A DNA stretch of 64,000 bases from Escherichia coli (GTDB taxonomy: Bacteria > Pseudomonadota > Gammaproteobacteria > Enterobacterales > Enterobacteriaceae): the NCBI RefSeq assembly GCF_003334305.1, contig NZ_QOWS01000018.1; one strand, given 5' to 3'. The notes beneath the pieces were generated by a model, which saw only the letters and a list, made by a program, of their open reading frames with translations, was not told the DNA's origin and made no database searches. Position numbers and translations under genes: made by a program. Below, one piece after another: positions 24,894 through 37,438 of the stretch. Within the stretch, counting starts at the first letter, position 1. Each line of letters opens with the position of its first letter.

Positions 24894-25499
24894 TTAGCCG
24901 TTAAGTTTAACTGCCAGACCTGCGACATATTCCCCTTGATAACGAGCAATAGACAGTTCTTCCTGGCTTGGCTGGCGTGAGCCGTCACCGCCTGCGATGG
25001 TTGTTGCGCCGTACGGCGTACCGCCGCGAACCTGTGAAACGTCAAATAATTCCTGCGCTGCGTAGCCAATGGGGACAATTACCATGCCGTGATGCGCAAG
25101 GGTCGTCCAGGTTGAAGTAATAGTTTGTTCCTGACCGCCGCCAGTACCGGTGGAACTAAAGACGCTCGCCAGTTTTCCGTATAGTGCGCCGGAAGCCCAC
25201 AGGCCGCCCGTCTGGTCGAGGAAGGTACGCATTTGACCGGACATGTTGCCAAAGCGGGTAGGTGTACCAAAAATAATGGCGTCGTAATCGGCCAGTTCTT
25301 GCGGGGTTGCAACCGGTGCAGTTTGCGTTTTACCGCCTGCTTTTTCAAATAATTGCGGCGGCATGGTTTCCGGTACACGCTTAACGACAACTTCTGCGCC
25401 ATCCACTTTGCTTGCACCCTCAGCGACTGCGCGTGCCATCGTTTCAATATGTCCGTACATGGAATAATAAAGCACTAGTATTCTTGCCTTAACACTCAT
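24894..25499 (-). CDS. wrbA: NAD(P)H:quinone oxidoreductase WrbA with an element-encoded N-terminus ([12 protein letters not shown] in place of the recalled K-12 MAKVLVLYY)
   Basis: 201-aa flavodoxin-like ORF; the first codons and the RBS (aggaga) lie in the inserted element, the rest is host wrbA. Confidence 0.9.
25469..25475. other. attL core candidate (AAAGCAC), left copy of the junction direct repeat
   Basis: Host wrbA sequence ends and element sequence begins right after this heptamer. Confidence 0.55.
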
Positions 25500-25550
25500 A
25501 TCATTGTTCTCCTGTTCAATGAACCACTTAGATAAGCATAGTCCGAAGAT

Positions 25551-27194
25551 ATGAAGCTGCTAGTGACATACATCAGGTGGAGTACTAAAGAGCAAGACTC
25601 AGGAGACTCCTTAAGACGACAAACAAACCTCATTGATGCTTTCTACTCTAAGCACAAAAACGATTATTACCTTCTTCCTGCTCACAGATACGTTGATAAG
25701 GGTAAATCTGGTTTTCACCAGCAACATAAGAATCAAGGTTCTGACTTCAGACGTATGTTTGAAAATGTTATGTCTGGGGCTATTCCAGAAGGTTCCCTGA
25801 TTGTTGTAGAGAACTTTGACCGCTTCAGTAGGGCTGATATCGACACAGCTATAGATGATGTCAGGCAGATACTGAGGAAGGGAGTCTCTATACTGACTCT
25901 GGGAGATGGTGAACTCTACGACAAGTCAGCATTAACAGACCCTGTGAAGCTGATTAAGCACATCATCATAGCTGAGCGAGCACATCAGGAATCTCTTGTT
26001 AAACAAAAGCGTATAGCTCAGGTCTGGAACCATAAAACACAGCTTGCAAGAGAACTTAAGAAGCCTATGGGTAAGCAAGCCCCCGGATGGTTAGAGCTAT
26101 CAGAAGACGGTTCACACTACATCGTTGATGAAGATAAAGCGTCACTGGTGAATATCATCTATGACAAGCGTCTTTCTGGTATGTCGATGTTTGCTATCTG
26201 CAAATGGCTAAACGAACAAGGTTACCCGACCATTAATCAGCGTAAGGTCAGAATATCCAAGACTAAGAAACCGGATGGTAACTGGTCAGCTTTAAGCGTT
26301 AAACACATCCTGACTTCACGAAGTGTATTAGGTTACCTTCCCGCTAAGATTTCTACAGAAGACCGTAAAACAGTGTTACGTGAAGAAATTGAAGGGTTCT
26401 ATCCTCAGATTGTCACAGATTCTAAGTTTTACGCTGTACAGCAACTGTTAGAGGAAACAGGGAAGGGGAAAACATCCAGCGGTGACCACTGGTTATACGT
26501 GAACATACTGAAGGGGCTTATCCGTTGTAAGTGTGGGCTTGTAATGACTCCTACAGGGATACGTAAACCCGTTTATCAAGGTACTTACCGTTGCAATGGT
26601 AATAAGGAGTCCCGTTGTAGCTACGGTACAGTGTCCAGAAAGTTACTTGATACACAGCTTTGTAGTCGTCTGTTTAGCAAACTGTCACAGCTACACGATG
26701 AAGCTACCGATACAGCTAAATTAGATGAACTACAAAGAAGATTAAACACCGTTGATGGTGAACTGGAAAAACTCACTGAGACGCTGATACAGCTTCCTAA
26801 CATCACTCAGATTCAAGAAGCACTACGGGTTAAACAGGAAGAAAAAGATGAACTGATAGTTCAGTTATCACGAGAAAAGGCGAGGGTAAAATCTGTATCA
26901 AGCTTGGATTTAAGCGGTCTTGATATGGAGTCTGTAGAGGGGAGAACTGAAGCCCAGATTATCATTAAGCGTCTGGTGAAAGAGATTGTTGTTTCTGGTA
27001 ATGAAAAGCTGGTGGATATATATCTTCACAATGGAAATATGATTCGTGGTTTCCCTCTTGATGGTAAAGATGACCACACCTTAACGCTTGAAGAAGCAAC
27101 CGATGAGATGCAGTCACTAGATGATATGCTTATTTTTGGTGAACCAGTAACAAGGATTTATCCTGCTGGTGATATGGAAGAGGTGGACGCTTAG
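25551..27194 (+). CDS. Large serine recombinase (integrase candidate)
   Basis: 547 aa; N-terminal resolvase-type catalytic motif YIRWSTKEQ (catalytic Ser), Cys-rich zinc-ribbon region (CKCG...CNGNKESRC) and coiled-coil segment typical of large serine recombinases; gene abuts the junction. Confidence 0.85.
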
Positions 27195-27979
27195 TATTTT
27201 TTATTAGGGTTCACTGAGTACTTTTTAAGCTTTGAAGCTACTCGACCAGCGTTACTATTAGCATTGGTGACGTTGGTTTTTTCAGCTTCTGTTAAGTCTG
27301 AATAGTCCAGCTTCCAAGCCTTATTACACTTAATCTGAGCATCGAGAATATCATTTCTGATAGCTGGAGCGTAACCGGATACATCGCTAATACTCATTAG
27401 CTCTTTGCACGATAGCATAGGCGCGTTATTGCGTTCAGTGGTCACGTTACCTGCATTCTTCTTACTGGTCACACCACCATCATTCGTAGTCGCGGCTTTT
27501 CCAGTTGCAGCCGAGATATCAGTCTGCCCCACAACAGCTTTGAAGTTAATTTCCTGAAAAGTTAGTTGGATTCTTAATCCGTTTGAAATTCCAACATCTT
27601 TAGAGGCTTTAAAACTTGTGATAATGGAATCATCAATTTTAATTCCGTCTTTACAGATGACAGAAATAATCTGCTTCTGGTCACGCCAGTTTTCCAGAGT
27701 GTCAATGAAGTTCTCTACTAATTGACCCTGACGAGTTAATAGTAAGCTTCCTTCATAACCAACTACAACGACACCACTGATAGTGATTGTTCTGGGTGCT
27801 CTTTGAACATTATCTGTGACGGTTTGCCCTGATTGCATGTTCTGTGTAGTCACCTGCATAGGGCTATCAAATTCCATATTTTCAGTTGCTGATAAGGTTA
27901 AGAAGGCATCTACATTATCTCTTAAGTGGAAGTAAACGCCATCTTTGCCACTGTAGCGGATTTGATTGCTAAAAATCAT
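27191..27979 (-). CDS. Hypothetical protein, possibly distal-tail (Dit)-like phage tail component
   Basis: Follows the tape-measure-like gene in the canonical order; start taken at the second Met (MIFSNQ), which has an AAGGAG RBS; homology not verified. Confidence 0.35.
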
Positions 27980-28059
27980 TAAATTCTCCTTTGATTTCAA
28001 AGGCTTAGTGTATTTTAATCATTTTTAACCAAGCCTTTGATATATAAGTATTTTCTCTG

Positions 28060-28128
28060 TTAAGCGTGAGCTACGTAAATTCTATTTTTCAGTGCGGGTA
28101 TTAACTTTGCTTTATTCACGTAGAACAC
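28060..28128. repeat. Direct repeat copy A (69 bp, internal dyad GCTACGT...ACGTAGC) upstream of the Dit-like gene
   Basis: ttaagcgtgagctacgtaaattctatttttcagtgcgggtattaac... about 88 percent identical to copy B. Confidence 0.75.
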
Positions 28129-28135
28129 CGTTAAA

Positions 28136-30304
28136 TCAATCATCTTCTGGGAATGATGAACTTAATAACGTAGCTTCTGCATATTGGTCGTAGATATTAC
28201 TGCTAAAGGTCATAAAGCTGGTTTCATCTGGTTTAATGGCAACTTCACCACCAAGTGAAACTTTCACAGGCTCCTGAATACGCTTACTTAAAGCAGAGAT
28301 TTCATCCCTCAGACCCTGAATATCTGCACTCGTTAATGCTGAATCTTGCTTAATGTTGTTTAATTCTGGATGATTGAATCTTGCAATATTCATTGTGGCA
28401 TTGTTAAACAATTCACCCATTGAACTAAAAATTCTACTCCATCCTTCGTTAATCACATTCGGTTTATTAGGGTCACCAGAATACACAGGATTAAAGTCAC
28501 TACCCACACCTACCCCAGATGGATGCATATTAGCGTTTTTGACTACTTCCTGATTCATAAAATCCAGTGCTTTCTTCAATGCATATAAACCAAGAGTGAC
28601 ACCTCTGATTTGTGGAATCATTGAAGCTAATGCTAACGCTGTTTCATAACCGTCATCAGCATAACCAATTGCAAGAGCACTACCTACACCACCAGCTACA
28701 CCTTTCAGTTTTCCACCACCTTTACCAGTAGCTACCTGACCAGCCACCTGATTAGCTCTTGTACCTAACGTTGTGATTGCTCTTGTCAGGTTCATAACCC
28801 CTGTAGTAGCACTGAATAGTGTCTTTGCAGATAACGCTATAGCAAGACCTTTGACGAAGTTGATAAATCCATCACCGACTTCATCAAGTAGCTTTCGCTT
28901 AGTGTCATCAAGGCTGTAATAGGTCTTCTTAATCTGTAGAATCCAGCCTTCAAGGTGATTGTTAAAGATACGGATGTCATCTACACCAGCTTTAAGCATG
29001 TCGATAAGTCCACCGATAGCATCACCAGCGATAGAAGAACTCATACCCATTTCACTAAGCAGGTTACTCAGGCTGGATAAGAAGCCATTTAGCTCATCCT
29101 GTGAACCTGAGAAGATTTTCACCATCGTATCATCCCAGTTGTTAGCCAGTTTCCCTAAAGCTGTCTGAGTGCTCTTAGCGACTTCAGCCCAGCCACCCGC
29201 TTTATCAATCATCAAGCCCATCTGTTTAGCGACTTTAGGGAGAGTATCACTACTTAAAATCTTCCCGTCTTTCATCGCTTTATCAAGCTCTGTAGCAGTC
29301 ATACCCAGTGCTTCAGCGAATAGCTTAAATGCACCAGCCATACGGTCACCTAACTGACCACGAAGCTCTTCAGCCTGAATCTTGCCCTTGCTCGCCATCT
29401 GCTCAAATGCTTTCAAAATGCCGTTTAGCTCATCGTTAGAAAGCCCCATTAAGCGACTCATAGCCGTTGCATTACCAAATAGCTCCTGTGTCTGTTCCTG
29501 TGACATAGAACCCTGAGCACCTGCTGCAAACTTAGCGTAGCTTGATAGCCCTTCAGAGATATTAAGACCTGTCTTGTCTGCTAAATTTCGAATAAATACC
29601 TCAGCTTCAGATGCTTTATCACCAAGTACAAACTTAGCGGCTCTCTGTGCGGAATCTCGTTTAAGACCTGCATTCATGATGGCCTTGTAAGCGTTAAGAG
29701 CACCCATCACAGAGTAAAATGCACCAGATAACTTGATTGCATTGCTTGCAAGATTATTAAATGCGTCGCTTGTATTGTTAATGCTGGTGGATGTATGACC
29801 TTTAGCTTTAGCAATTGCTTCTCTGACTGAAGCATTTAACTGAGTCAGCTTCTCATTGAATTTTGAAGAATCCATTGACCCAGCTTTAGCAGATAGCCCG
29901 TAAAACTGAGATTTGATGTATTTCTGCAAAATAGGGTCAAAGCCTTTTAGCTTAGACATATTAGCTGAGTAAGCCGCTGTGATTGCTCTGTTGCCGCTAA
30001 TTCGTGGCTGTCTTGGTTGTCTAAGTGGCTTTAAAGTGTCATCAATTTCCGTTTTAATCTTAAACGCTCTAGTGTTTTTAAGACGCTGCTCAATCTTGGA
30101 AACAGTTTTATCGACATTCTTTTCCATTAGTTTGAGAGAATCATTTAAAGGCGTAGGGTTAACTCTGAATGCCTTATTTAGTCGTTTCTCAATTCTTGAT
30201 GCGATTTGCATCGTTTGTTTCTCGGCTTTTTCCAAGCCTTTTAAAACTTTCTGAGAGCTAAAACTTAGCTCAATCAAAAAATCATCAACTTTAAATTGTG
30301 CCAT
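28136..30304 (-). CDS. Tape-measure-like protein (phage tail length tape measure family candidate)
   Basis: 722 aa; coiled-coil N-terminus, central region resembling the tape-measure core (...AEELRGQLGDRMAGAFKLFAEALGMTATELDKAMKDG...), Gly-rich hydrophobic segments. Confidence 0.55.
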   Translation of the reverse strand: MAQFKVDDFLIELSFSSQKVLKGLEKAEKQTMQIASRIEKRLNKAFRVNPTPLNDSLKLMEKNVDKTVSKIEQRLKNTRAFKIKTEIDDTLKPLRQPRQPRISGNRAITAAYSANMSKLKGFDPILQKYIKSQFYGLSAKAGSMDSSKFNEKLTQLNASVREAIAKAKGHTSTSINNTSDAFNNLASNAIKLSGAFYSVMGALNAYKAIMNAGLKRDSAQRAAKFVLGDKASEAEVFIRNLADKTGLNISEGLSSYAKFAAGAQGSMSQEQTQELFGNATAMSRLMGLSNDELNGILKAFEQMASKGKIQAEELRGQLGDRMAGAFKLFAEALGMTATELDKAMKDGKILSSDTLPKVAKQMGLMIDKAGGWAEVAKSTQTALGKLANNWDDTMVKIFSGSQDELNGFLSSLSNLLSEMGMSSSIAGDAIGGLIDMLKAGVDDIRIFNNHLEGWILQIKKTYYSLDDTKRKLLDEVGDGFINFVKGLAIALSAKTLFSATTGVMNLTRAITTLGTRANQVAGQVATGKGGGKLKGVAGGVGSALAIGYADDGYETALALASMIPQIRGVTLGLYALKKALDFMNQEVVKNANMHPSGVGVGSDFNPVYSGDPNKPNVINEGWSRIFSSMGELFNNATMNIARFNHPELNNIKQDSALTSADIQGLRDEISALSKRIQEPVKVSLGGEVAIKPDETSFMTFSSNIYDQYAEATLLSSSFPEDD

Positions 30305-30322
30305 TGTTCATATTTCACCTCT

Positions 30323-30390
30323 TTAAGCGTGAGCTACGTAAATTCTATTTTTCAGTGTGGGTATTAGCTTTACAGATTTCACGTAGCACA
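30323..30390. repeat. Direct repeat copy B upstream of the tape-measure-like gene
   Basis: ttaagcgtgagctacgtaaattctatttttcagtgtgggtattagc...cacgtagcacac. Confidence 0.75.
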
Positions 30391-30505
30391 CATAGGATTC
30401 GATAGAAGACTATCTCATATACAAAAAAGGAGAGTTACCGATGTCACTCGATAATCTCTCCCGTAGATTTTTACCCAACCAATTCTATTAGAAGCTAATC
30501 TCAAA

Positions 30506-30721
30506 TTAATGGTAAACGTAAGAATACATCCCATCATCACCTAAAATCTGTGCGTCACATGGTAATTTATCTAAGCACCATGAAGGAATCTTACGTACCT
30601 TTGGTTTATGTGAGGTGATAACTTGATGCTGATTTTTAATTCGTAGCTTTGGTTTAGTCTGAAGCTTTAAGTTCTCACAAACAGACTTAATAAGTTCATA
30701 GCGTTCTGTTAAATCAATCAT
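30506..30721 (-). CDS. Hypothetical small basic protein
   Basis: 71-aa ORF co-oriented with neighbouring element genes; no recognisable motif. Confidence 0.4.
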   Translation of the reverse strand: MIDLTERYELIKSVCENLKLQTKPKLRIKNQHQVITSHKPKVRKIPSWCLDKLPCDAQILGDDGMYSYVYH

Positions 30722-30744
30722 TCACCACCTCTTTTAATTCATAG

Positions 30745-31455
30745 TTAAAGTGCCTTGCTATATTTCTGAGAAATCTTCACTAACTGCTCAATATCAGCCT
30801 GCATAGCAATCTTCTTCTGCGTTTCATATGCAGAAATAAGCTCTTTCATAGCCTGAAGCTCTCTTGAGAGATACAACTTAACATTTTCAAGTTGCTTGTT
30901 ACGTGATGCCAAGATGTTCTGTCTGGCAAGTTCAGCGAGTTCTTCATCGCTCTTATTAGTCGTGTAAATAAACTGACCAGCACCCCTTGAAGCTTTAACC
31001 ATCTTCACAATTCGATATCCAGCAGGAAGACTACTAATCACGGCTGCGACGTTTTCTTGAAAAGTACCAAAACCATCATTGTCTTCGTATGTGAAGTAAA
31101 CATACGGCTTCTGTGACAATTCATCCTGAATCTCAAATTCTGACGGCTCAATAGCTGATTGCATCAGGGTAACTTTACTGTAAGCATCATCTAGTTTAAT
31201 ACGCTGTGCTTTTAGCAGTGGGTAATATTCACGCTCAAGCTCAAGTAATGCTTCAGTTTTGCATACATCAGGCATCTCTTGAGGCTCAGGAGACACAAAG
31301 ATGATTTCCTTTGGTGACATTCGGATTTCTTGCTCAAGCTTAATTCTTTCATCGTGTTCTTTACGCTGAATAGCGATAGCTGGATGTTCAGTCTGTGGCG
31401 ACCAGTCACCGAAGCTATCAATCACTTTGCCATTAATGTAAATATCATTTGTCAT
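30745..31455 (-). CDS. Hypothetical protein with C-terminal coiled coil
   Basis: 236-aa ORF with a good RBS (aagagga); no recognisable domain. Confidence 0.5.
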   Translation of the reverse strand: MTNDIYINGKVIDSFGDWSPQTEHPAIAIQRKEHDERIKLEQEIRMSPKEIIFVSPEPQEMPDVCKTEALLELEREYYPLLKAQRIKLDDAYSKVTLMQSAIEPSEFEIQDELSQKPYVYFTYEDNDGFGTFQENVAAVISSLPAGYRIVKMVKASRGAGQFIYTTNKSDEELAELARQNILASRNKQLENVKLYLSRELQAMKELISAYETQKKIAMQADIEQLVKISQKYSKAL

Positions 31456-31933
31456 TGTTTTTTCCTCTTCTAAGCTAAAGTATTTCAGTTTTTAAAAAGC
31501 ACACCTGACAGCCTATCTAAACTTAGAAGAGACTTAAAAGGCGGTTTGCCAAGTATGCTTTTTAAAAGCTGAAAAAGCCCTAGATAACTAAAACGCTATA
31601 AAGGGCTAAGGTGAAGAAATTAAAACATCTAAAGGATTCAATAACGAATGAACAAAGACTTTTCGAGATAGCCTCTCAGGTTGTATAAGAGGCCATGTAG
31701 CGAAAAGCATTGCACCTTTCAGAATGTTCGGTATAGAACATACCTCACCAACTCAGAATATCCATCCATCGGATTATTGAAATAAATAAGAGAGAAATTC
31801 TCTCTATAATTAAAATTATGTCATGCTTAAGGTTATTTGTCAACAGCTTTTTAACAGATTGGTAACATTTATACTTTAATAGATGCACCTGCAATCATAC
31901 CAATCAACACAAAACAGAGAATCACCAATTCCA

Positions 31934-32257
31934 TTAATGCACCACCTTCGAATCCGTAACCAGAATATTATCGCTGTACAAAATTGCTATAGCCGCCTTG
32001 AGATATTTTTCAGGGCTAACGCTGTATTTGTTCGTTTGCTCGACAACCAATCTTTTCATGTTGCTGTCTTTAATTGGTAGCATCATTCGAGGCTCGTTAA
32101 ACTCCACCGACTGAATAAAGTCAGAGATGCTTTCCGCATTATCAGTCATTAACTCTAACAACTTATCAAAGTCAATGCTAACACCTACATCAGTGAAAGC
32201 CTGAATCATCATGGCGGTGTCGGTATCAATAAAAATCTGTAATTCGTAATTGTTCAT
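31934..32257 (-). CDS. Hypothetical acidic protein
   Basis: Start taken at the ATG (MNNYELQIF) preceded by AAGGAG; the track ORF begins at an upstream TTG. Confidence 0.45.
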   Translation of the reverse strand: MNNYELQIFIDTDTAMMIQAFTDVGVSIDFDKLLELMTDNAESISDFIQSVEFNEPRMMLPIKDSNMKRLVVEQTNKYSVSPEKYLKAAIAILYSDNILVTDSKVVH

Positions 32258-32412
32258 TTTTAAAATCTCCTTTTTACCAGACCTCCTCAATCGCTCTGTA
32301 ACGAGCTAAACAGTCTTTTTCAGGGGTAGCCTGTACAGTGGTATTACCCACCCTAAAATAAGATAGTTTTTTGCGTCAGAATGCGATTGAGAGCGTCTGA
32401 GAAGCTGTTTTT

Positions 32413-32700
32413 CTAATTTCTCTTAAAGTCTCGGACTTGCATAAGATTTTTTGGTCTGGTATCGGCTCTGTTACCATTTCGATGGATAATTTGCTTGTTG
32501 GATTGATAGCCATGATAAAGAAACCAGACAACATATTTCACGTAGAAAGTATATCGGCCTATATTAAATGTTTTGTTGCCGTAGTCGTCGGTGTTTATCG
32601 TGACTGACTCTCCATCAGACCAGCACAGGGAATCACTGGATTCATCATAGATAAGGTGTTCTGCAAAATATCTTCTAACATCTTCATTCCAAGGTTTCAT
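32413..32700 (-). CDS. HNH endonuclease-like protein
   Basis: 95 aa; C-terminal IIHRNGNRADTRPKNL resembles the HNH core (I-H-x-N/D-G-N-x-x-D-N-R-x-x-N-L) of phage HNH nucleases. Confidence 0.5.
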   Translation of the reverse strand: MKPWNEDVRRYFAEHLIYDESSDSLCWSDGESVTINTDDYGNKTFNIGRYTFYVKYVVWFLYHGYQSNKQIIHRNGNRADTRPKNLMQVRDFKRN

Positions 32701-32912
32701 AAAACCTCCTCACCCCAATAACCTAATTCAATCTTGTGACGCTCAAACCATTCCGGTTTAACTGCTGTTTTCAGTACTTCATTTGGGCCAATGGCTTTAA
32801 TGAAAATATCTTTTGAGTTATGGATGTCACCGAATCCGTTTCCTTCAATCAGGAGGTCGGAGATGTAGCGAATCATTTTATCCGTGTGGTATTCAAAGGT
32901 AACGCATAGCAT
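32697..32912 (-). CDS. Hypothetical protein
   Basis: 71-aa ORF with start/stop overlap to both neighbours (operon-like coupling). Confidence 0.4.
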   Translation of the reverse strand: MLCVTFEYHTDKMIRYISDLLIEGNGFGDIHNSKDIFIKAIGPNEVLKTAVKPEWFERHKIELGYWGEEVL

Positions 32913-33193
32913 TAAACCTCCAGAGACAGCTTGTGAATCTTAAGACTCAATAGACGGGCAATATCAATTTTAAAGCCGTTAAGTCCCTTCAAAGTATCTA
33001 AAGCGTCCTGAGTAATTCGGATGTGTTTACGACCTTTAGAGACTGGATATTTAAGTAAATCCGACTCAGTAACCTCTTTAGCAATTGCAAGCTGCATAAC
33101 AGTCTGATGAGGTAAGTTAGTAGCTCGTTTAATTCTGGCAAGCTCGTTAAAAGCTTCCTCTGAAATGCGGGTTAAAGTGTGTTTGTTTTTCAT
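32912..33193 (-). CDS. Putative ribbon-helix-helix DNA-binding protein
   Basis: N-terminal HTLTRISEEAFNELARIKRATNL pattern (beta-strand then helix) typical of Arc/MetJ/CopG-type regulators. Confidence 0.4.
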   Translation of the reverse strand: MKNKHTLTRISEEAFNELARIKRATNLPHQTVMQLAIAKEVTESDLLKYPVSKGRKHIRITQDALDTLKGLNGFKIDIARLLSLKIHKLSLEV

Positions 33194-33194
33194 T

Positions 33195-33749
33195 TTAAAA
33201 TTCCTCTGTAACTAAATACGGGTCAAATTCAAAGTCTGGTTCACTGGTTGTAAGGCTGATATTTCCAACTTCCGCATGATGATTAATTGTCTCAATAACT
33301 TTCATGCAAATAGTGGCTAAGTTAGCGCAATATTTATCACTTGGTAATTCGTAGCTAAGTCTGGTTGCTTGTCTTTGAAGATGGCTCGTCACTGTGCTTG
33401 AACTAATCTCATCAAGACTTCGCAGTAAATAAAAAACCTTCCGGTGATAATTATCTCTTCCAAGACTGCGACAAGTACCGATAATTACATCTTCAATTCG
33501 TGGCGGTAATTGCTCGTAAGAATCAAAGCCCATCAAGAAAGTTTTTAAAGTATTCTCTTTTTCTTTGCGTGCTGGCATAAATCTGTCTCGTGGCGTAATG
33601 CTACGAATGACCGCTTCAATGTTCTTACGTTCGGATTTGCTAAAGGTTGGGACTTCGTAGCTGGTGGGGGTGTCTGTGTGGCTGTAACCGTTGTGTCTGT
33701 TGCGTTCTCTTGATGCCTGAAGCATCGCTCTAAATTCTCTGTCGTTCAT
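33195..33749 (-). CDS. Hypothetical protein (first gene of the leftward operon)
   Basis: 184-aa ORF with no recognisable domain. Confidence 0.45.
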   Translation of the reverse strand: MNDREFRAMLQASRERNRHNGYSHTDTPTSYEVPTFSKSERKNIEAVIRSITPRDRFMPARKEKENTLKTFLMGFDSYEQLPPRIEDVIIGTCRSLGRDNYHRKVFYLLRSLDEISSSTVTSHLQRQATRLSYELPSDKYCANLATICMKVIETINHHAEVGNISLTTSEPDFEFDPYLVTEEF

Positions 33750-33850
33750 TCATAAGCTAGTCCTTATAATTGTTAATTCTCTGTTAACTTATATATACAA
33801 TACTAGCATTTTCAAAGACTAATGTCAAGCATTTTTTAACATTTCATTAA

Positions 33851-33866
33851 CATCTGTGGTATAATG
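33851..33866 (+). promoter_or_regulatory. Candidate extended -10 promoter (TGgTATAAT), rightward
   Basis: ctgTGgTATAATgg in the divergent region between the 184-aa gene and the small membrane ORF. Confidence 0.45.
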
Positions 33867-33992
33867 GTTCTATGGGGAGAGTAAAATATAAAGGCGTGGC
33901 TATGAGGTTTATTCGATAGGGGTTGGTACAAGCCCAACCAACCGAATCAACTATGTATGTCACATGGTATTGCATTGCACACAGGAAATTTA

Positions 33993-34169
33993 ATGGTAAA
34001 TCTCCCTCCTGAACTGGGGTCACCTGATGTATGGGCTGGTGGAGGTATCGGGCTGATTGCAGGTCTGTTACTCCGCTACGTCCTTGTCAGAGTGCTTGTT
34101 GTGTTCCGATTGTTCGGTCGTACATGGACGCTTGACCTTAAGGATAATGAGCACACAGAACCCCGTTAA
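33993..34169 (+). CDS. Small single-pass membrane protein (58 aa from the RBS-preceded ATG)
   Basis: Hydrophobic stretch GGGIGLIAGLLLRYVLVRVLVVF; AGGAAA RBS before the MVNLPPEL start. Confidence 0.35.
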   Translation: MVNLPPELGSPDVWAGGGIGLIAGLLLRYVLVRVLVVFRLFGRTWTLDLKDNEHTEPR

Positions 34170-34211
34170 GCTCCCTTCAAATCCCCCTGTACGAGATGGC
34201 ATAGGGGTGTC

Positions 34212-34250
34212 TTTAGCATTTTGTGCTATCTATTAAAAAATAACTTGACA
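34212..34250. promoter_or_regulatory. Operator-like dyad TAGCA-N5-TGCTA followed by ACTTGACA (module 1)
   Basis: tttagcattttgtgcta ... acttgacagaa. Confidence 0.45.
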
Positions 34251-34289
34251 GAACCGGAAAGCTGTATCTATCAGGTATTCACCTCTCTG

Positions 34290-34460
34290 ACAGTAACTTC
34301 TAAAAGTTCTTATTTTTCAATGAGTTGTAATCACCCATATATAGAGAACTGACAAGTCTCTTCACAATTAACTCTGTAACCTTAACAGTGATTTCTAAAA
34401 ATGCTTATTTTTCAATAAGTTGTAATTAGCCATATATAGAGAACTGACAAGTCTCTTCAC
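34290..34460. repeat. Two tandem copies of a 76-bp direct repeat (period 95 bp) in ORF-free DNA
   Basis: acagtaacttctaaaagttcttatttttcaatgagttgtaatcacccatatatagagaactgacaagtctcttcac versus the second copy, about 88 percent identical. Confidence 0.8.
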
Positions 34461-34777
34461 GGAGAACTTCCTGGACTCACTAAGATACAAGGCGATAACC
34501 CCAGAAAGGGAGAGCCACCTTCTAATTGGTATTGTTATGAGGATGCTTCATCCGAATCATCTACCAATCCCTAAACCGACTTCTTAAACAATCTTTACAG
34601 ACCCCGTTCACCAGTCTCAATATTTTTATTTCTCGCTCTTCGTTTGTTGCTCGTTTCTATTATTGAGGGGGTTTGAAAAACCTCTGTAAAATAACCCTTC
34701 CAGTAAAAAGCGAATAACCCCAGAGAGGGGGAATCGCCTCTTTAACATTCTCATAATCAGTGCTCTATATGAGAATT

Positions 34778-35446
34778 TCAGCCCAACCTTTGAACAATCT
34801 TGTAAGTGGTGCTTAGAGGCATTCTTAGCGATTCTGCGATGCTCTTGACGGATTGCCCTTGGCCATGCAGTTTAATCAGCCTGTCAAGCGTCTGTGCATC
34901 GTGTATATGAGGTCTTCCACGTAAACCACCCCTGTTAACCACGGCAAGTAAAAGCATTGTGTCGCCACAATAGATTGTTTGTGTAACTTCAACCTTCGGT
35001 TTACGGGGTGTGTTCCTGTATATCAAAACGCAACTTGCAAACGGTGAACGCACTACAACACCTTTCTTCCCTGCTGGTGGAAGGTATTTGACTGCTCGGT
35101 GTAACGTTCGAATCTCATGCAGAAAGGGGTTTGTATATACACACCGAAGCCAGTAAGTTGTCTTTGACCTGTGCGGAACCAGACATACACACACATCAGC
35201 TTCATGGGATTTTAGGAGGAACCTTTCAGCCATGCTAAACGGCGGGTTAACGAAGACCCGTTCACCAACCCATGATTGATTGTGAATATCATCGGTGAAC
35301 CGTGGCAACAATGCGTCATGCTCAGTTGCAGCACCATCCATCGAAAAACCAAATTCACGGTGTAGGTTACGAAATAAACGATACGGTGTACGCCAGTCAT
35401 CAGAACCACCATGATAACGACCGACATTGATTATTGGATGTGACAC
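34778..35446 (-). CDS. Dam-family (phage-type) DNA N6-adenine methyltransferase with a C-terminal HTH extension; GTG start
   Basis: N-terminal DWRTP and catalytic NPPF motifs of the phage Dam family; C-terminal about 45 aa (GRPHIHDAQTLDRLIKLHGQGQSVKSIAESLRMPLSTTYKIVQRLG) resemble the GRP-linker plus HTH of resolvase/invertase proteins. Confidence 0.7.
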   Translation of the reverse strand: MSHPIINVGRYHGGSDDWRTPYRLFRNLHREFGFSMDGAATEHDALLPRFTDDIHNQSWVGERVFVNPPFSMAERFLLKSHEADVCVCLVPHRSKTTYWLRCVYTNPFLHEIRTLHRAVKYLPPAGKKGVVVRSPFASCVLIYRNTPRKPKVEVTQTIYCGDTMLLLAVVNRGGLRGRPHIHDAQTLDRLIKLHGQGQSVKSIAESLRMPLSTTYKIVQRLG

Positions 35447-35485
35447 AAGCGAAGCGCCCCTCTTAGTATATTTCTTAATCGTCTC

Positions 35486-35546
35486 TTTAGCATTTAGTGC
35501 TTTTTGTTAAGTTTAGCACTTTTTGCTAAAGACAAAACACTTGACA
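35486..35546. promoter_or_regulatory. Operator-like dyads (TTTAGCA-N6-TGCTAAA and a second half-degenerate copy) followed by ACTTGACA (module 2), upstream of the methyltransferase gene
   Basis: tttagcatttagtgct and tttagcactttttgctaaa, then acttgacaaaa. Confidence 0.5.
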
Positions 35547-36020
35547 AAATGGTAAGATTGTTCACATGACCTTACTTAACAGATTCTTAAGAGCTTTGAA
35601 ACGAACTGTTTAACAAGGTCACTACCTCTGGTCTTATCGTTCCCTCTCTTCTTGGTAGTTCTGTTAAGTATCTTTTCAGGTATCTCTTACAGTCACTGTT
35701 AAGATAGAACCTACCTTCGGTTTCATGGTTCTCTTCCTCCCGTTAAATATCCCTTCACAGTCAGACTAAATAACACCTCTGTAGTTTCTTGGTAGAATCT
35801 TTCAAGGTAACTTAACTCTGAGTTTATGAAGTTGACCTTAGTCAATGTTTGTGAAGGTGTTACAGAGCATGTTCTCTAGGTCTGTGTAGCTCACTAAGCG
35901 AGAGAGGGGATATGTGACCATAGGGGAACCCCTCCTGTTAAAAGTTTCTTGATGTTATCATCACAATATGTATAATCACCAACTGTACAGACACCTTAAC
36001 GGTTTCTCTACACCTCACTA

Positions 36021-36089
36021 TGGCTAGGTAGGGTATGGTTTAGCTTGGTACGGCTAGGTTAGGTCTGGTTTGGTTAGGTATGGGTGGAT
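36021..36089. repeat. Degenerate G/T-rich short tandem repeat (GGYTAGGT-like units)
   Basis: tggctaggtagggtatggtttagcttggtacggctaggttaggtctggtttggttaggtatgggtgg. Confidence 0.6.
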
Positions 36090-36120
36090 TGTCGTAGCCA
36101 CGTTAAAAATCGACTTATAG

Positions 36121-36145
36121 GGACTCTTTCGGGAGTCCTTTTTAG
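36121..36145 (+). terminator. Intrinsic terminator, plus orientation, with no upstream plus-strand ORF
   Basis: ggactc-tttcgg-gagtcc stem-loop followed by ttttt. Confidence 0.6.
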
Positions 36146-36347
36146 TTTGTATAAAATCTGTACAGGAGTTATCAGGCTTCTAAAATTTTTATAAAAAATA
36201 ATCAGACCTCTTCTAAGCCTCTTCAACCAAATCTTTCGAAAATATCTGACAGATGTCTGTAGCTGCTAAGTACCCGTCACACCAGCTATGTGACCCCCTT
36301 GGCAAAAAAGCCAAATATCAGCTACATCCATGTAACTATTCAGTAAC

Positions 36348-36899
36348 TTATTTAGCAAGTCTGTAATAAGTTGCTCTAGAGATTCCTAACTCTTCCTGAA
36401 TCTGCAACCTCGTCTTACCTTGTGAAATAAGCGTCTGTACAGCCTCTGAAGAAGCCTTTACAGGCCTCCCCATATGTACCCCTTCAGCTTTAGCACGTTC
36501 AATACCAGCCTTTCTACGCTCTGCTATCAAGCTTCTTTCAAGCTGTGCCAACGTTGACATAATGCCTAACATTGCTTCACCCATAGCGCTTGATAAGTCA
36601 AACCCTTCTCTAAGGCTGATAACTGTCACACCTTTAGCCTGTAGCGCTTTAACCGTTGATAACACATCAATTGTGTCACGTCCAAGACGGTCTACAGCTA
36701 CCACAACTACGGTGTCACCTTCTCGTGCATAAGCTAACAAACTACTGAAACCGTTTCTTAAAGAAGCTTTGACAGAACCACTGACAGCTTCATCAGTGAA
36801 CCATTTAGCAATGTTGTACCCTGCCTCTTCAATTTGCATTTGCTGGTTAGTGATGGATTGGTCATCTGTACTCACCCTGCAATATCCAAGTATCGCCAT
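36348..36899 (-). CDS. Small serine recombinase (resolvase/DNA-invertase family)
   Basis: 183 aa; N-terminal catalytic motif GYCRVSTDDQ, resolvase core, C-terminal GRP linker plus HTH. Confidence 0.85.
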   Translation of the reverse strand: MAILGYCRVSTDDQSITNQQMQIEEAGYNIAKWFTDEAVSGSVKASLRNGFSSLLAYAREGDTVVVVAVDRLGRDTIDVLSTVKALQAKGVTVISLREGFDLSSAMGEAMLGIMSTLAQLERSLIAERRKAGIERAKAEGVHMGRPVKASSEAVQTLISQGKTRLQIQEELGISRATYYRLAK

Positions 36900-36912
36900 A
36901 CATCCCCCTTAG

Positions 36913-37040
36913 AAGTCTCAAAAGTTAGTCTCATAAGTTTAGCTGTCTCATAATCCAAAAACAACCTTTTGAGACTACTTGAGGGTGCATTCTACCGTTA
37001 CGTTGAAAGTGTCTCAAAAGGAAGTCCTTTTAAGACTGGT
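36913..37040. promoter_or_regulatory. Iteron-like array of GTCTCAWAAG motifs (at least four direct, two inverted) immediately upstream of the small recombinase gene
   Basis: gtctcaaaag, gtctcataag, gtctcataat, inverted ttttgagact, gtctcaaaag, taagact within about 125 bp. Confidence 0.6.
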
Positions 37041-37416
37041 TATGAAGGAGCTATGAAGATTTTAGGAGGGTAACTATAACCATCACTTTCTAACTTTCAC
37101 GTAGGAAATCGTTAAGTTTCTTGATAGTTACACCATGTGACCAACTATCTATATATCGTTATATAGCCCTGTATATAACACTTTTCTAGGAGTCGAGAGA
37201 GGGACGACTAACACGATACAGTTTACCCTGAAAAGAGACTTCACAGATTCTCTATATATTTCAATAAGTTAGGCTAAAAAGAGACTATACCGATACTGTA
37301 TAGAATCTGTGTAGAATTGCTTAGATACTTGGAAAAATGCCTTTAAATTGAATAGGTACTAACCTGTTTATGTCCTGTTATTAACAGGTAGTTGAATGTA
37401 CGTGTTTAGCTATGTA

Positions 37417-37438
37417 AAAGCACCAGAACTTTAGCCAT
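37417..37438 (-). other. attR core candidate (AAAGCAC) plus the displaced native wrbA start codon and first five codons
   Basis: Minus strand reads ATG GCT AAA GTT CTG GTG C..., the recalled native wrbA 5' end, now separated from the gene body by the element. Confidence 0.6.

What the first reader, a model, noticed from the sequence alone, without database searches (positions are those of the whole stretch)
25551..36899. Two serine recombinases of different classes bracket the element
A 547-aa large serine recombinase sits at the attL side and a 183-aa resolvase/invertase-type recombinase lies about 0.5 kb from attR, preceded by an iteron array. The large enzyme is the likely integrase. The small one could resolve multimers, invert a segment to give phase-variable expression, or be a relic. 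Having both, with the Dam-HTH protein carrying a resolvase-like HTH tail nearby, hints at recombination-driven regulation inside the element.
Basis: partly seen in the sequence, partly recalled or inferred. Interest (0 to 1): 0.6.

Follow-up and report, generated by a model that had tools for sequence, protein, structure and literature searches.

The report
Integrase plus resolvase in phage satellite
A 12-kb mobile element inserted in the E. coli wrbA gene carries a known large serine integrase at one end and, at the other, an intact resolvase with its own three-part recombination site that most likely splits multi-copy forms of the element into single copies rather than flipping DNA to regulate genes; the element looks like an undescribed satellite of Felix O1-like phages.

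Summary
A 547-aa large serine recombinase (25551-27194, +) lies 75 bp inside attL. A 183-aa resolvase-type recombinase (36348-36899, -) starts 518 bp from attR. Six binding half-sites sit just upstream of the small gene.

The large enzyme is the integrase. It differs at 2 of the 399 residues I could compare from 'Ec04' of Durrant et al. 2022, whose listed attP matches my att sites.

The small enzyme keeps every catalytic residue. The 'iterons' form a res-like site: a 12-2-12 crossover dyad, a 31-bp dyad and a direct-repeat pair. This layout is conserved in Klebsiella and Enterobacter homologues. Only one crossover site exists in the 64 kb. No inverted isoform appears in 17 loci or in 5,426 complete E. 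coli genomes. Inversion, phase variation and 'relic' are therefore rejected, and multimer resolution is the best reading.

The cassette is optional (228 genomes against about 551 with the family). The identical protein is paired with four different integrases.

Wider context: the element has zero GATC sites, as does the one complete Felixounavirus genome I checked. Its tape-measure and distal-tail-like genes are homologues of adjacent genes in those phages. An 11.2-kb contig with overlapping ends, carrying the attP junction, occurs in a metagenome. It is probably an undescribed satellite of these phages.

The parts
25469..25475 (.). attL core AAAGCAC, shared with attB and attR. The insertion replaces the first codons and the promoter of wrbA.
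   Evidence: Comparison with the empty K-12 site. WrbA here begins MSVKARI... instead of the K-12 N-terminus and is 99% identical from residue 5.
25551..27194 (+). Large serine recombinase (547 aa), the integrase. Essentially 'Ec04'.
   Evidence: Pfam Resolvase + Recombinase + Zn_ribbon_recom. PHROG 95 integrase, 5e-78. It differs at 2 of 399 residues from Ec04, whose listed attP is the same.
27191..28000 (-). Distal-tail (Dit)-like 'baseplate' protein. Homologue of the Felixounavirus gene that follows the tape-measure gene.
   Evidence: 73% amino-acid identity, with 253 phage records covering at least 80% of the query. 518 bp are 94.8% nucleotide-identical to phage LF82P2. The family homologue is assigned PF21821 Dit_like.
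28136..30304 (-). Tape measure protein (722 aa). Full-length homologue of the Felixounavirus tape measure protein.
   Evidence: PHROG 4036. 27-29% identity over the full length in several Felixounavirus records, and about 32% over 84% in others. PF20155 TMP_3.
30506..33749 (-). Block of small core genes of unknown function. It includes an HNH endonuclease (32413-32700). A 184-aa ORF (33195-33749) occupies the slot held by a replication-initiator-like protein in some relatives.
   Evidence: Synteny in 17 loci. HNH match. The 322-aa variant hits replication-initiator PHROGs. The PGAP label 'transposase' on 30745-31455 has no support.
34290..34460 (.). Two 76-nt direct repeats (91% identical) in a 1-kb non-coding stretch. 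Candidate origin or regulatory region.
   Evidence: Conserved in relatives.
34778..35446 (-). Dam-family N6-adenine methyltransferase with an NPPF motif and a weak resolvase-type HTH tail. Optional cargo.
   Evidence: Absent from L005, L008, L009, L017, L019, L025 and L026.
36021..36114 (+). Non-coding GGT-rich segment similar to a Felixounavirus intergenic repeat region. A terminator-like hairpin follows at 36119-36140.
36348..36899 (-). Small serine recombinase (183 aa), resolvase type, with an intact catalytic set.
   Evidence: Pfam. Gamma-delta resolvase E 3e-31 against Gin 8e-22. Y6 R8 S10 R71 R74 are invariant and D36 is conserved in at least 90% of 20 homologues. The catalytic set is taken from PMC2794168.
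36915..36939 (-). res subsite III: two half-sites in direct repeat, 13 bp apart, next to the ribosome-binding site.
   Evidence: The same layout is seen in Klebsiella, Enterobacter and Pseudomonas homologues.
36945..36975 (-). res subsite II: an inverted pair of half-sites spanning 31 bp (12-7-12).
37011..37036 (-). res subsite I: the candidate crossover site, GTCTCAAAAGGA-AG-TCCTTTTAAGAC (12-2-12). The -35 of a sigma-70-like promoter (37017..36989, - strand) lies inside it.
   Evidence: It is the only match in 64 kb. Promoter scan. Conserved in all loci that carry the small recombinase.
37137..37393 (.). Non-coding end segment. It is the most widely conserved part of the family and is kept in members without the small recombinase. 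It contains the palindrome CCTGTTATTAACAGG at 37374-37388.
37417..37423 (.). attR core AAAGCAC.
   Evidence: The attP formed by joining this end to the attL end equals the Ec04 attP and occurs in metagenome contigs.

Best explanation
The two recombinases do separate, non-redundant jobs in an 11.95-kb satellite-like element.

The large serine recombinase integrates the circular element at a 7-bp core in the 5' end of wrbA. With an unidentified directionality factor it would also excise it.

The small enzyme is a resolvase. It binds as dimers to a roughly 120-bp res-like site directly upstream of its own gene. That site has a crossover dyad (site I) and two accessory subsites. When two res copies lie in direct repeat on one molecule, the enzyme recombines them. 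Such substrates would be replication dimers or head-to-tail concatemers of the excised element. The result is monomer circles that the integrase can use.

Because the -35 of its likely promoter lies inside site I, the enzyme probably also represses its own gene.

Shown: domain architecture, intact catalytic residues, att sites, site architecture and its conservation, a single copy of the site, constant orientation, optional presence, and the existence of the attP junction in nature.

Inferred: actual resolution activity, its substrate and autoregulation.
For: Integrase:
- Domain architecture.
- It differs at 2 of 399 residues from Ec04, which is listed among 'experimentally characterized LSRs and cognate attachment sites' with an attP that equals the joined ends of this element.
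- The attP junction is present in 3 metagenome contigs. One is an 11,233-bp contig with a 55-bp terminal overlap that carries all core genes.

Resolvase:
- The catalytic residues Y6, R8, S10, D36 and the equivalents of R68 and R71 are present and conserved.
- The best solved relatives are gamma-delta and Tn3 resolvases.
- Six half-sites lie in 122 bp upstream of the gene, and none lies elsewhere in the window.
- The same three-subsite layout occurs in Klebsiella (63% identity) and Enterobacter (67%) homologues, and the direct-repeat subsite also in a Pseudomonas one (52%).
- The site and the C-terminal DNA-binding region stay nearly invariant while the catalytic domain diverges to 72%.
- Tn3 res likewise has three dimer sites, and Sin site II is a direct repeat (PMC9943657).

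Independence from integration:
- The identical small protein is paired with four different large recombinases and att sites.
- Homologues also occur in elements that have tyrosine integrases.

Need for resolution:
- A large serine integrase does not recombine attP with attP (established knowledge).
- Relatives carry a replication-initiator-like gene.
- PICMI satellites of virulent phages are packaged as concatemers of helper-genome size (PMC10803314).
Against: - No recombination product of res x res was observed, and none could be with these tools.
- The cassette is absent from more than half of the genomes that carry the family (228 against about 551), so it is not essential.
- The regulatory-interface residues of Tn3/gamma-delta (R2, R32, K54, E56) are A2, K32, Y57 and R59 here. 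The synaptic architecture may therefore differ.
- Site III is a direct rather than an inverted repeat, and the centre of site I is asymmetric (CT/AG) rather than the symmetric AT centre I recall for Tn3/gamma-delta site I (from memory, not checked in the papers read).
- Autonomous replication of this particular copy is not shown.
- No tandem or multimeric form is present in complete genomes. This shows that the substrate is transient, if it exists at all.
Confidence: 0.62

Rival explanations
1. The small recombinase is a DNA invertase that flips a segment near attR (for example 34200-37000 or 35660-37247) and so gives phase-variable expression.
For: - Two imperfect inverted repeats flank the gene: 35660-35680/37227-37247 (21 nt, 90%) and 36331-36350/37113-37132.
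- The 12-2-12 site I resembles 26-bp hix/gix sites in size (own knowledge).
- The start of helix E resembles Hin, since the best PDB hit is what I recall to be a gamma-delta/Hin chimaera (the identity of that entry is from memory).
- Database names often say 'invertase'.
Against: - Only one site-I-like dyad exists in 64 kb, even allowing 5 mismatches.
- The flanking inverted repeats do not contain the recombinase half-site, and they persist in family members that lack the recombinase.
- A synthetic junction for the 35660/37227 inversion matched its halves in 551 genomes, but in 0 of 5,426 did one place cover at least 80% of it.
- All 120 listed BLAST places are collinear.
- Orientation is the same in 17 of 17 loci.
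Confidence: 0.04
2. The small recombinase acts mainly as a site-specific DNA-binding repressor of the attP-proximal control region, and recombination is incidental or lost.
For: - Its sites overlap its own predicted promoter.
- In the circular form it is divergent from the integrase gene across about 600 bp.
- The cassette lies in a regulatory, non-coding part of the element.
Against: - Five of the six catalytic residues are invariant, and D36 is conserved in at least 90%, across 20 homologues down to 53% identity. A pure repressor would not need them.
- A crossover-type 12-2-12 dyad is conserved alongside the accessory sites.
- Family members that lack the cassette keep the same control region.
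Confidence: 0.15
3. The small recombinase takes part in integration or excision, either as a directionality factor or as a second integrase for the element.
For: It sits at the end opposite the integrase and close to attR. In the circle the two genes flank attP.
Against: - The identical protein occurs with four large recombinases that are only 27-35% identical to one another and use different att sites.
- It is absent from an otherwise equivalent wrbA element that has the same integrase.
- Homologues occur in elements with tyrosine integrases.
- Its binding sites are 380 bp or more from the att core.
Confidence: 0.05
4. The small recombinase is a decaying relic, for example of a Tn3-family transposon, with no current function.
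For: It is optional within the family and has no partner transposase.
Against: - The ORF is intact and the catalytic residues are conserved.
- The cognate site is better conserved than the coding sequence.
- The exact protein is indexed in 5,518 blocks of the public assembly collection.
- The family is spread across Enterobacteriaceae with the same site layout.
- No Tn3-like transposase lies nearby.
Confidence: 0.03
5. The small recombinase acts on other DNA: on the helper phage genome, or between co-resident satellites, to make or break cointegrates.
For: - Up to two res copies occur per genome.
- Cassettes are shuffled among family members.
- Site I occurs in two polarity classes (CT and AG), which would isolate recombination groups.
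Against: - The complete Felixounavirus LF82P2 genome has no site-I-like dyad and no enrichment of half-sites.
- No phage or plasmid record carries the module.
- Mosaic breakpoints (about 34706, 35528 and 36148) do not coincide with site I at 37023.
Confidence: 0.08

Closest known systems
Ec04 and Ec03 large serine recombinases (Durrant et al. 2022, Nat Biotechnol, PMC10083194)
   Same: The window's integrase differs from Ec04 at 2 of the 399 residues shown, and the listed attP equals the joined ends of this element. The Ec03 att sequences match the tonB-yciI junction sequence of the sister elements (L003/L004), whose integrase is also 506 aa.
   Different: That work treats the enzymes as genome-engineering tools. 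I found no description of the host element, its small recombinase or its phage affinities in the parts I read.
Tn3 / gamma-delta resolvase with its 114-bp res site
   Same: - A 183-aa protein with a Resolvase catalytic domain and an HTH_7 domain.
- Best solved relatives (E about 1e-29 to 1e-31).
- All six crucial catalytic residues are present.
- The site lies upstream of the gene, with three dimer-binding subsites and the crossover site farthest from the gene.
- The likely promoter lies inside the site.
   Different: - No transposase and no transposon ends.
- The regulatory-interface residues R2/R32/K54/E56 are not conserved (A2/K32/Y57/R59).
- Site III is a direct repeat.
- Site I is 26 bp with an asymmetric CT/AG centre.
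- About 35-38% identity only.
Sin and beta recombinases (resolvases of Gram-positive plasmids)
   Same: An accessory subsite made of directly repeated half-sites (PMC9943657). The role is plasmid multimer resolution, not transposition.
   Different: Sin res has two subsites plus an HU/IHF site, whereas three subsites are seen here. Sequence similarity is much weaker (E 1.5e-13 for the full-length Sin-type chain, about 1e-6 for the Sin catalytic-domain fragments).
Hin/Gin/Cin/Pin DNA invertases
   Same: Same protein superfamily and size. A 26-bp 12-2-12 crossover site with an asymmetric central dinucleotide.
   Different: There is a single site, no invertible segment and no orientation variants. 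Similarity is lower than to resolvases (Gin E 8e-22). Accessory subsites are present, which I recall invertase systems lack (from memory).
PLE of Vibrio cholerae and PICMI of Vibrionaceae (satellites of virulent phages)
   Same: - A small integrated island.
- A large serine integrase, as I recall for PLE (from memory, not checked here).
- No capsid or terminase genes.
- A close relationship to one lineage of virulent phages.
- PICMI is packaged as a concatemer of helper-genome size. This would create the kind of substrate a resolvase needs.
   Different: - Different host and a different phage lineage (Felixounavirus).
- The element carries homologues of the phage's tape-measure and distal-tail genes.
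- The optional resolvase/res cassette: the word 'resolvase' does not occur in the PICMI paper, and for PLE I know of none from memory only.
- Helper dependence is not demonstrated here.

Membership tests
Large serine recombinase (phage-type serine integrase) | N-terminal resolvase-type catalytic domain with a serine nucleophile | tested here: met
   PF00239 at residues 5-155. The motif YIRWSTKEQ with S11, and DRFSR at residues 90-94, are read directly from the sequence.
Large serine recombinase (phage-type serine integrase) | Recombinase domain followed by a zinc-ribbon domain in a large C-terminal extension | tested here: met
   PF07508 (8e-19) and PF13408 (5e-4). PHROG 95 integrase, 5e-78.
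Large serine recombinase (phage-type serine integrase) | Gene at the edge of an inserted element, with a short core shared by attB, attL and attR | tested here: met
   The 7-bp core AAAGCAC is found by comparison with the empty K-12 site. The gene starts 75 bp from attL.
Large serine recombinase (phage-type serine integrase) | attP x attB recombination demonstrated | tested here: inconclusive
   Ec04 (2 of 399 residues differ) is in the supplementary list of 'experimentally characterized' enzymes with att sites, but I did not find its activity values. The attP junction is seen in metagenome contigs.
Small serine resolvase with a res site (Tn3/gamma-delta type) | Catalytic residues Y6, R8, S10, D36, R68, R71 | tested here: met
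   Alignment to gamma-delta resolvase gives Y6, R8, S10, D36, R71 and R74. They are invariant or at least 90% conserved in 20 homologues. The residue list is from PMC2794168.
Small serine resolvase with a res site (Tn3/gamma-delta type) | C-terminal HTH DNA-binding domain joined by a GR(P) arm | tested here: met
   PF02796 HTH_7 at residues 144-180. It aligns end to end with gamma-delta resolvase.
Small serine resolvase with a res site (Tn3/gamma-delta type) | A res site next to the gene with several dimer-binding subsites (three in Tn3) | tested here: met
   Six half-sites lie in 36915-37036, forming a 26-bp dyad, a 31-bp dyad and a direct pair. The layout is conserved in E. coli, Klebsiella and Enterobacter. 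Protein binding was not tested.
Small serine resolvase with a res site (Tn3/gamma-delta type) | Regulatory (2-3') interface residues R2, R32, K54, E56 | tested here: not met
   The equivalent residues are A2, K32, Y57 and R59. The interface residues are as given in PMC9943657. Y57 and R59 are invariant in this clade, so a different interface is likely.
Small serine resolvase with a res site (Tn3/gamma-delta type) | Part of a Tn3-family transposon (transposase plus terminal inverted repeats) | tested here: not met
   The element has no transposase. The only ORF labelled 'transposase' has no family match. The cassette sits in satellite-like islands.
Small serine resolvase with a res site (Tn3/gamma-delta type) | Resolves directly repeated res sites on one supercoiled molecule | not testable with these tools
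   This needs an in vivo or in vitro two-res substrate assay.
DNA invertase (Hin/Gin/Cin/Pin) | Two crossover sites in inverted orientation flanking an invertible segment | tested here: not met
   There is one site-I dyad in 64 kb, allowing up to 5 mismatches.
DNA invertase (Hin/Gin/Cin/Pin) | Both orientations of the segment found among related genomes | tested here: not met
   0 of 5,426 genomes has the inverted junction. Orientation is the same in 17 of 17 loci. BLAST places are collinear.
DNA invertase (Hin/Gin/Cin/Pin) | Fis-dependent enhancer | not tested
   No search for an enhancer was made.
Phage satellite (PLE / PICMI-like, helper = virulent phage) | Small integrated island with an integrase and att sites but no capsid or terminase genes | tested here: met
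   The element is 11.95 kb. The gene list from PHROG, Pfam and NCBIfam searches shows no capsid, portal or terminase.
Phage satellite (PLE / PICMI-like, helper = virulent phage) | Specific genetic link to one phage lineage | tested here: met
   - Dit-like protein 73% identical, with 518 bp at 94.8% nucleotide identity.
- Full-length tape-measure homology.
- A shared non-coding segment.
- Zero GATC sites both in the element and in Felixounavirus LF82P2.
Phage satellite (PLE / PICMI-like, helper = virulent phage) | Excised circular or concatemeric form exists | tested here: met
   Contig L034 is 11,233 bp, has a 55-bp terminal overlap and has attP inside it. No attP junction occurs in any complete E. 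coli genome.
Phage satellite (PLE / PICMI-like, helper = virulent phage) | Induction, packaging and transfer depend on a helper phage | not testable with these tools
   This requires infection experiments.

The most novel reading that the evidence does not exclude
The element belongs to an undescribed family of E. coli phage satellites that parasitise virulent Felix O1-like myophages (Felixounavirus). Members are about 12 kb and GATC-free like the one complete phage genome checked. They integrate through at least four different large serine recombinases (wrbA, tonB-yciI, yecE and an msyB-side site). They carry their own versions of the phage's tape-measure and distal-tail genes and still exchange DNA with the phage. 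The optional resolvase/res cassette would turn helper-genome-sized concatemers (about 7 copies; 85.6/11.95 = 7.2) into integrable monomers after transfer. This would be a satellite function not described so far.
Probability: 0.45. Interest if true: 0.8.

Novelty: new member of a known kind. Interest (0 to 1): 0.5.

Why it matters
Taken alone, the pair of recombinases is an ordinary division of labour: an integrase for the chromosome and a resolvase for multimers. It does not provide a regulatory switch.

The value lies in the context. The already engineered integrases Ec03 and Ec04 come from a compact, widespread island family. Family sequences occur in about 10% of complete E. coli genomes. 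The family shows all the marks of a satellite of Felix O1-like virulent phages.

The satellites of virulent phages I am aware of are PLE and PICMI in Vibrionaceae and, from the literature search here, satellites in Streptococcus thermophilus. An E. coli example would be a tractable model.

It would also bear on phage therapy and biocontrol, where I understand Felixounavirus phages are used. The resolvase would point to a step in the satellite life cycle, monomerisation of packaged concatemers, that has not been assigned an enzyme.

Tried and rejected
1. Inversion between the repeats 35660-35680 and 37227-37247. A synthetic inverted junction found no genome in which one place covered at least 80% of the query. 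The collinear alignments argue against it.

2. A second crossover site in the window or in the phage. None was found.

3. Rfam and tRNA scans of the element, including the three long non-coding stretches. Nothing was found.

4. Lambda or P2 cos sequences in the element. None was found.

5. A promoter reading into the integrase gene, either next to attL or across attP in the circular form. No sigma-70-like site was found, so a 'junction promoter' idea is unsupported.

6. The module in phage or plasmid records. There was only a 90-bp phage match and a distant Klebsiella plasmid recombinase.

7. The PGAP label 'transposase' on 30745-31455. There is no Pfam, PHROG or NCBIfam support.

8. Defence-system models. 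The only hits were 'orphan methyltransferase' for Dam and 'homing endonuclease' for the alternative cassette.

9. The O111 strain 11128 case, where the module abuts a lambdoid prophage. It is a satellite remnant left by IS-associated deletion, not part of the phage.

10. Species-representative genomes and IMG/VR gave only 3 + 2 loci with peptide patterns. The E. coli collection and look-ups by exact protein sequence were far more useful.

11. Ten literature searches found no description of this family. The library is limited, so prior description elsewhere cannot be excluded.

Full report
**Where the window comes from.** The window matches E. coli strain A7 (NZ_CP028767.1) at 100% identity. 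A low-GC block (about 40% against 52%) lies between wrbA and ymdF.

**Element ends.** I compared the window with the empty K-12 locus.
- The attL core AAAGCAC is at 25469-25475 and the attR core at 37417-37423.
- The inserted element is 25476-37423, 11,948 bp.
- The insertion removes the first codons and the promoter of wrbA and supplies a new start, MSVKARI....

**The observation.**
- The 547-aa protein (25551-27194, +) has Resolvase, Recombinase and zinc-ribbon domains and hits the PHROG integrase family at 5e-78.
- The 183-aa protein (36348-36899, -) has Resolvase and HTH_7 domains.
- The Dam-family protein (34778-35446, -) has an NPPF motif and a weak resolvase-type HTH tail (Pfam 6e-4, pairwise E 0.006).

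**The large enzyme is a known integrase.**
- Its N-terminal peptide occurs in the supplement of Durrant et al. 2022 (PMC10083194). Ec04 (WP_053290909.1, 547 aa) differs from it at 2 of the 399 residues printed.
- The attP listed for Ec04 is the reverse complement of the attL-side end of the element, then the core, then the attR-side end. This independently confirms my boundaries.
- The Ec03 att sequences in the same table match the tonB-yciI junction sequence of the sister elements L003/L004, whose integrase is also 506 aa.
- An exact 24-nt attP junction was found in three metagenome contigs.
- One of them, L034, is 11,233 bp with a 55-bp terminal overlap. Such an overlap is the usual signature of a circular or tandemly repeated template.
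- L034 carries an integrase 99.5% identical to the window's, all core genes, the small recombinase and its site.
- No complete E. coli genome contains the Ec04-type or Ec03-type attP junction: 0 of 94 and 0 of 229 matching genomes. The junction therefore reflects an excised or packaged form, not a common chromosomal tandem.

**The small enzyme is an intact resolvase-type recombinase.**
- Its best solved relatives are gamma-delta and Tn3 resolvases (E 3e-31 to 9e-29). Gin scores 8e-22 and the best Sin-type chain (Tn552 bin3) 1.5e-13.
- The six residues shown to be crucial in Tn3 resolvase are Y6, R8, S10, D36, R68 and R71 (PMC2794168). They correspond here to Y6, R8, S10, D36, R71 and R74.
- These are invariant or nearly so in 20 homologues down to 53% identity, from Escherichia, Klebsiella, Enterobacter, Citrobacter, Cronobacter, Yersinia, Aeromonas and others. 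This excludes a relic.
- It is not a close Tn3/gamma-delta family member. The regulatory-interface residues R2/R32/K54/E56 (PMC9943657) are A2/K32/Y57/R59, and Y57 and R59 are invariant in this clade.

**The 'iteron array' is a res-like site.**
- Six copies of GTCTYAWAAG lie in 36915-37036 and none elsewhere in the window.
- Reading from the gene outward:
  - a pair of direct repeats 13 bp apart (36915-36939);
  - a 31-bp inverted pair, 12-7-12 (36945-36975);
  - a 33-35 bp spacer;
  - a 26-bp dyad, 12-2-12 (37011-37036).
- A sigma-70-like promoter for the gene (TTGAGA-17-TAGAAT, 37017..36989) has its -35 inside the dyad. Binding should therefore repress the gene. This is a consensus match only.
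- The same three-part layout, with the same or slightly altered half-sites, lies upstream of the Klebsiella (63% identity) and Enterobacter (67%) homologues. The direct-repeat subsite, with a different half-site sequence, lies upstream of a Pseudomonas homologue (52%).
- Among E. coli elements this region is nearly invariant although the proteins are only about 72% identical overall. The conserved part of the protein is the C-terminal DNA-binding region.
- Tn3 res is a 114-bp site with three dimer-binding subsites, and the accessory subsite of Sin is a direct repeat (PMC9943657). Each feature therefore has a precedent among resolvases.

**Tests of the inversion idea.**
- The crossover-type dyad is unique in the 64 kb, even allowing five mismatches.
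- Two imperfect inverted repeats do flank the gene. They lack the recombinase half-site and are retained in family members without the recombinase.
- A synthetic junction for the 35660/37227 inversion matched its two halves separately in 551 genomes. In none of the 5,426 genomes did one place cover at least 80% of it.
- All 120 listed BLAST places of the 2-kb module are collinear.
- In 17 of 17 fetched loci the small recombinase is on the same strand as the core genes.
There are no orientation variants, but the catalytic residues are retained. The gene is functional but is not an invertase of this region.

**The cassette is optional and independent of integration.**
- The small recombinase with its site occurs in 228 of 5,426 complete genomes. 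The conserved end segment of the family occurs in about 551.
- Strain 23CRST024 has the same wrbA element and integrase, but an HNH homing-endonuclease gene occupies the place of Dam and the small recombinase.
- The identical 183-aa protein is found with four different integrases and insertion sites: wrbA, tonB-yciI, yecE and an msyB-side site.
- Homologues occur in Klebsiella islands that have tyrosine integrases and a capsid-like gene, and in an Enterobacter island next to two AbiTii genes.
- A role in integration or excision, or as a directionality factor, is therefore unlikely.

**What the element is.**
- Its gene order is conserved: integrase, Dit-like protein, tape measure protein, about seven small genes, variable cargo.
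- There is no capsid, portal or terminase gene.
- The Dit-like protein is 73% identical to the gene that follows the tape-measure gene in Felixounavirus phages (253 records). The tape measure protein is a full-length homologue of theirs.
- 518 bp of the Dit-like gene are 94.8% identical at nucleotide level to phage LF82P2.
- A GGT-rich non-coding segment (36021-36114) matches an intergenic repeat region in 93 phage records, those listed being Felixounavirus-type phages.
- The element contains no GATC at all (47 expected). The same holds for every E. coli family member examined, with or without a Dam gene. The 85.6-kb phage LF82P2 also has none (286 expected).
- In some relatives the slot of the 184-aa ORF holds a replication-initiator-like protein.
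- Together with the circular or concatemeric contig, this points to a satellite of Felix O1-like phages, which are virulent (established knowledge).
- Ten full-text searches found no description of such a family. The library is incomplete, so this is not proof of novelty.

**Most likely mechanism.**
- The integrase handles attP x attB. It would handle attL x attR with an unknown factor.
- It cannot recombine attP with attP (established knowledge), so it cannot reduce multimers.
- After excision the element presumably replicates. If it is packaged like PICMI satellites, as concatemers the size of the helper genome (PMC10803314), about seven copies would fill a Felixounavirus head (85.6/11.95 = 7.2).
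- A resolvase acting on directly repeated res sites would then yield monomer circles for integration. Host recombination could substitute for it, which fits the cassette being optional.
- These last steps are inference.

**Unexplained points.**
- Site I occurs in two polarity classes (centre CT or AG in gene sense) in elements that encode the identical enzyme.
- The target of a Dam-family enzyme in a GATC-free element is unknown.
- No promoter for the integrase was found in either the integrated or the circular configuration.

Noticed in passing
window 25476-37423; also L004, L017-L029, L034; phage L032+L033: GATC is completely absent from the 11.95-kb element (0 observed, 47 expected). No other 4-nt palindrome is absent, and only CTAG is notably low (12 observed, 33 expected). 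Every E. coli family member examined is also GATC-free, with or without a Dam gene. So is the 85.6-kb Felixounavirus LF82P2 (0 observed, 286 expected).
   Followed up: yes
window 27191-30304 and 36021-36114: The tape-measure and Dit-like genes are homologues of adjacent Felixounavirus genes. The Dit-like protein is 73% identical, and 518 bp of its gene are 94.8% nucleotide-identical. A GGT-rich non-coding segment matches an intergenic repeat region in 93 phage records, those listed being Felixounavirus-type phages. The element looks like a satellite of these virulent phages.
   Followed up: yes
L034 (ERZ506742 contig, 11,233 bp); L035; L036: Metagenome contigs carry the exact attP junction of the Ec04-type element. 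L034 has a 55-bp terminal overlap, which indicates a circular or concatemeric 11.18-kb form. L036 comes from a 23-kb contig that could be a dimer, but only 6 kb of it was available.
   Followed up: partly
window 37023-37024 (centre of site I); L004, L014, L020, L023-L026, L028: The central dinucleotide of the crossover dyad is CT (gene sense) in some elements and AG in others, although they encode the identical recombinase. No other dinucleotide was seen. CT and AG sites would not be able to recombine with each other.
   Followed up: partly
window 25476-25515 and wrbA 24894-25499: The insertion replaces the wrbA start and promoter. The element supplies a new ribosome-binding site and the N-terminus MSVKARI, which keeps the ORF open. 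The native wrbA promoter now lies beyond attR.
   Followed up: partly
window 34523-34574: A 52-bp internal sequence is the same as the sequence at the attR junction of yecE-type family members (L018, L020). This suggests past tandem insertion or end-to-end recombination between family members next to the variable cargo slot.
   Followed up: no
window 28060-28128 and 30323-30391: Two 69-nt direct repeats (88% identical) sit just upstream of the Dit-like gene and of the tape-measure gene. They are probably duplicated control sequences. No match was found in the phage genome.
   Followed up: partly
window 34290-34460, 35574-35680 and 37223-37314: Several copies of two short motifs (TTTCAATAAGTT and ATATATAGAGAAnCTGnnAAGTCTCTT / ACTTnACAGATTCT) lie in the non-coding regions. 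They are conserved in family members that lack the small recombinase, so they are likely sites for another regulator or an origin.
   Followed up: no
window 33917-33936; L003, L005, L008, L009 upstream regions: A small palindromic unit (GTTGGGCTTGTACCAACCCC with short flanks) is present or absent at different positions in different family members, like a miniature mobile insert.
   Followed up: no
window 30745-31455: RefSeq annotates this 236-aa ORF as 'transposase', but it matches no Pfam, PHROG or NCBIfam family. The label is probably wrong.
   Followed up: yes
L003/L030 (E. coli O111:H- 11128, 1.59-1.65 Mb): The small-recombinase module survives as a remnant next to yciI. It is fused through IS1203 and a deletion of ompW-tonB to a lambdoid prophage. 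That phage's tail region (7.2 kb) is also free of GATC.
   Followed up: partly
family-wide: Tape measure proteins of family members are only 41-52% identical to the window's protein in most cases. The neighbouring Dit-like proteins are mostly 62-82% identical (97% in one relative) and the small core proteins up to 100%. This suggests diversifying change or repeated replacement of the tape-measure gene.
   Followed up: no
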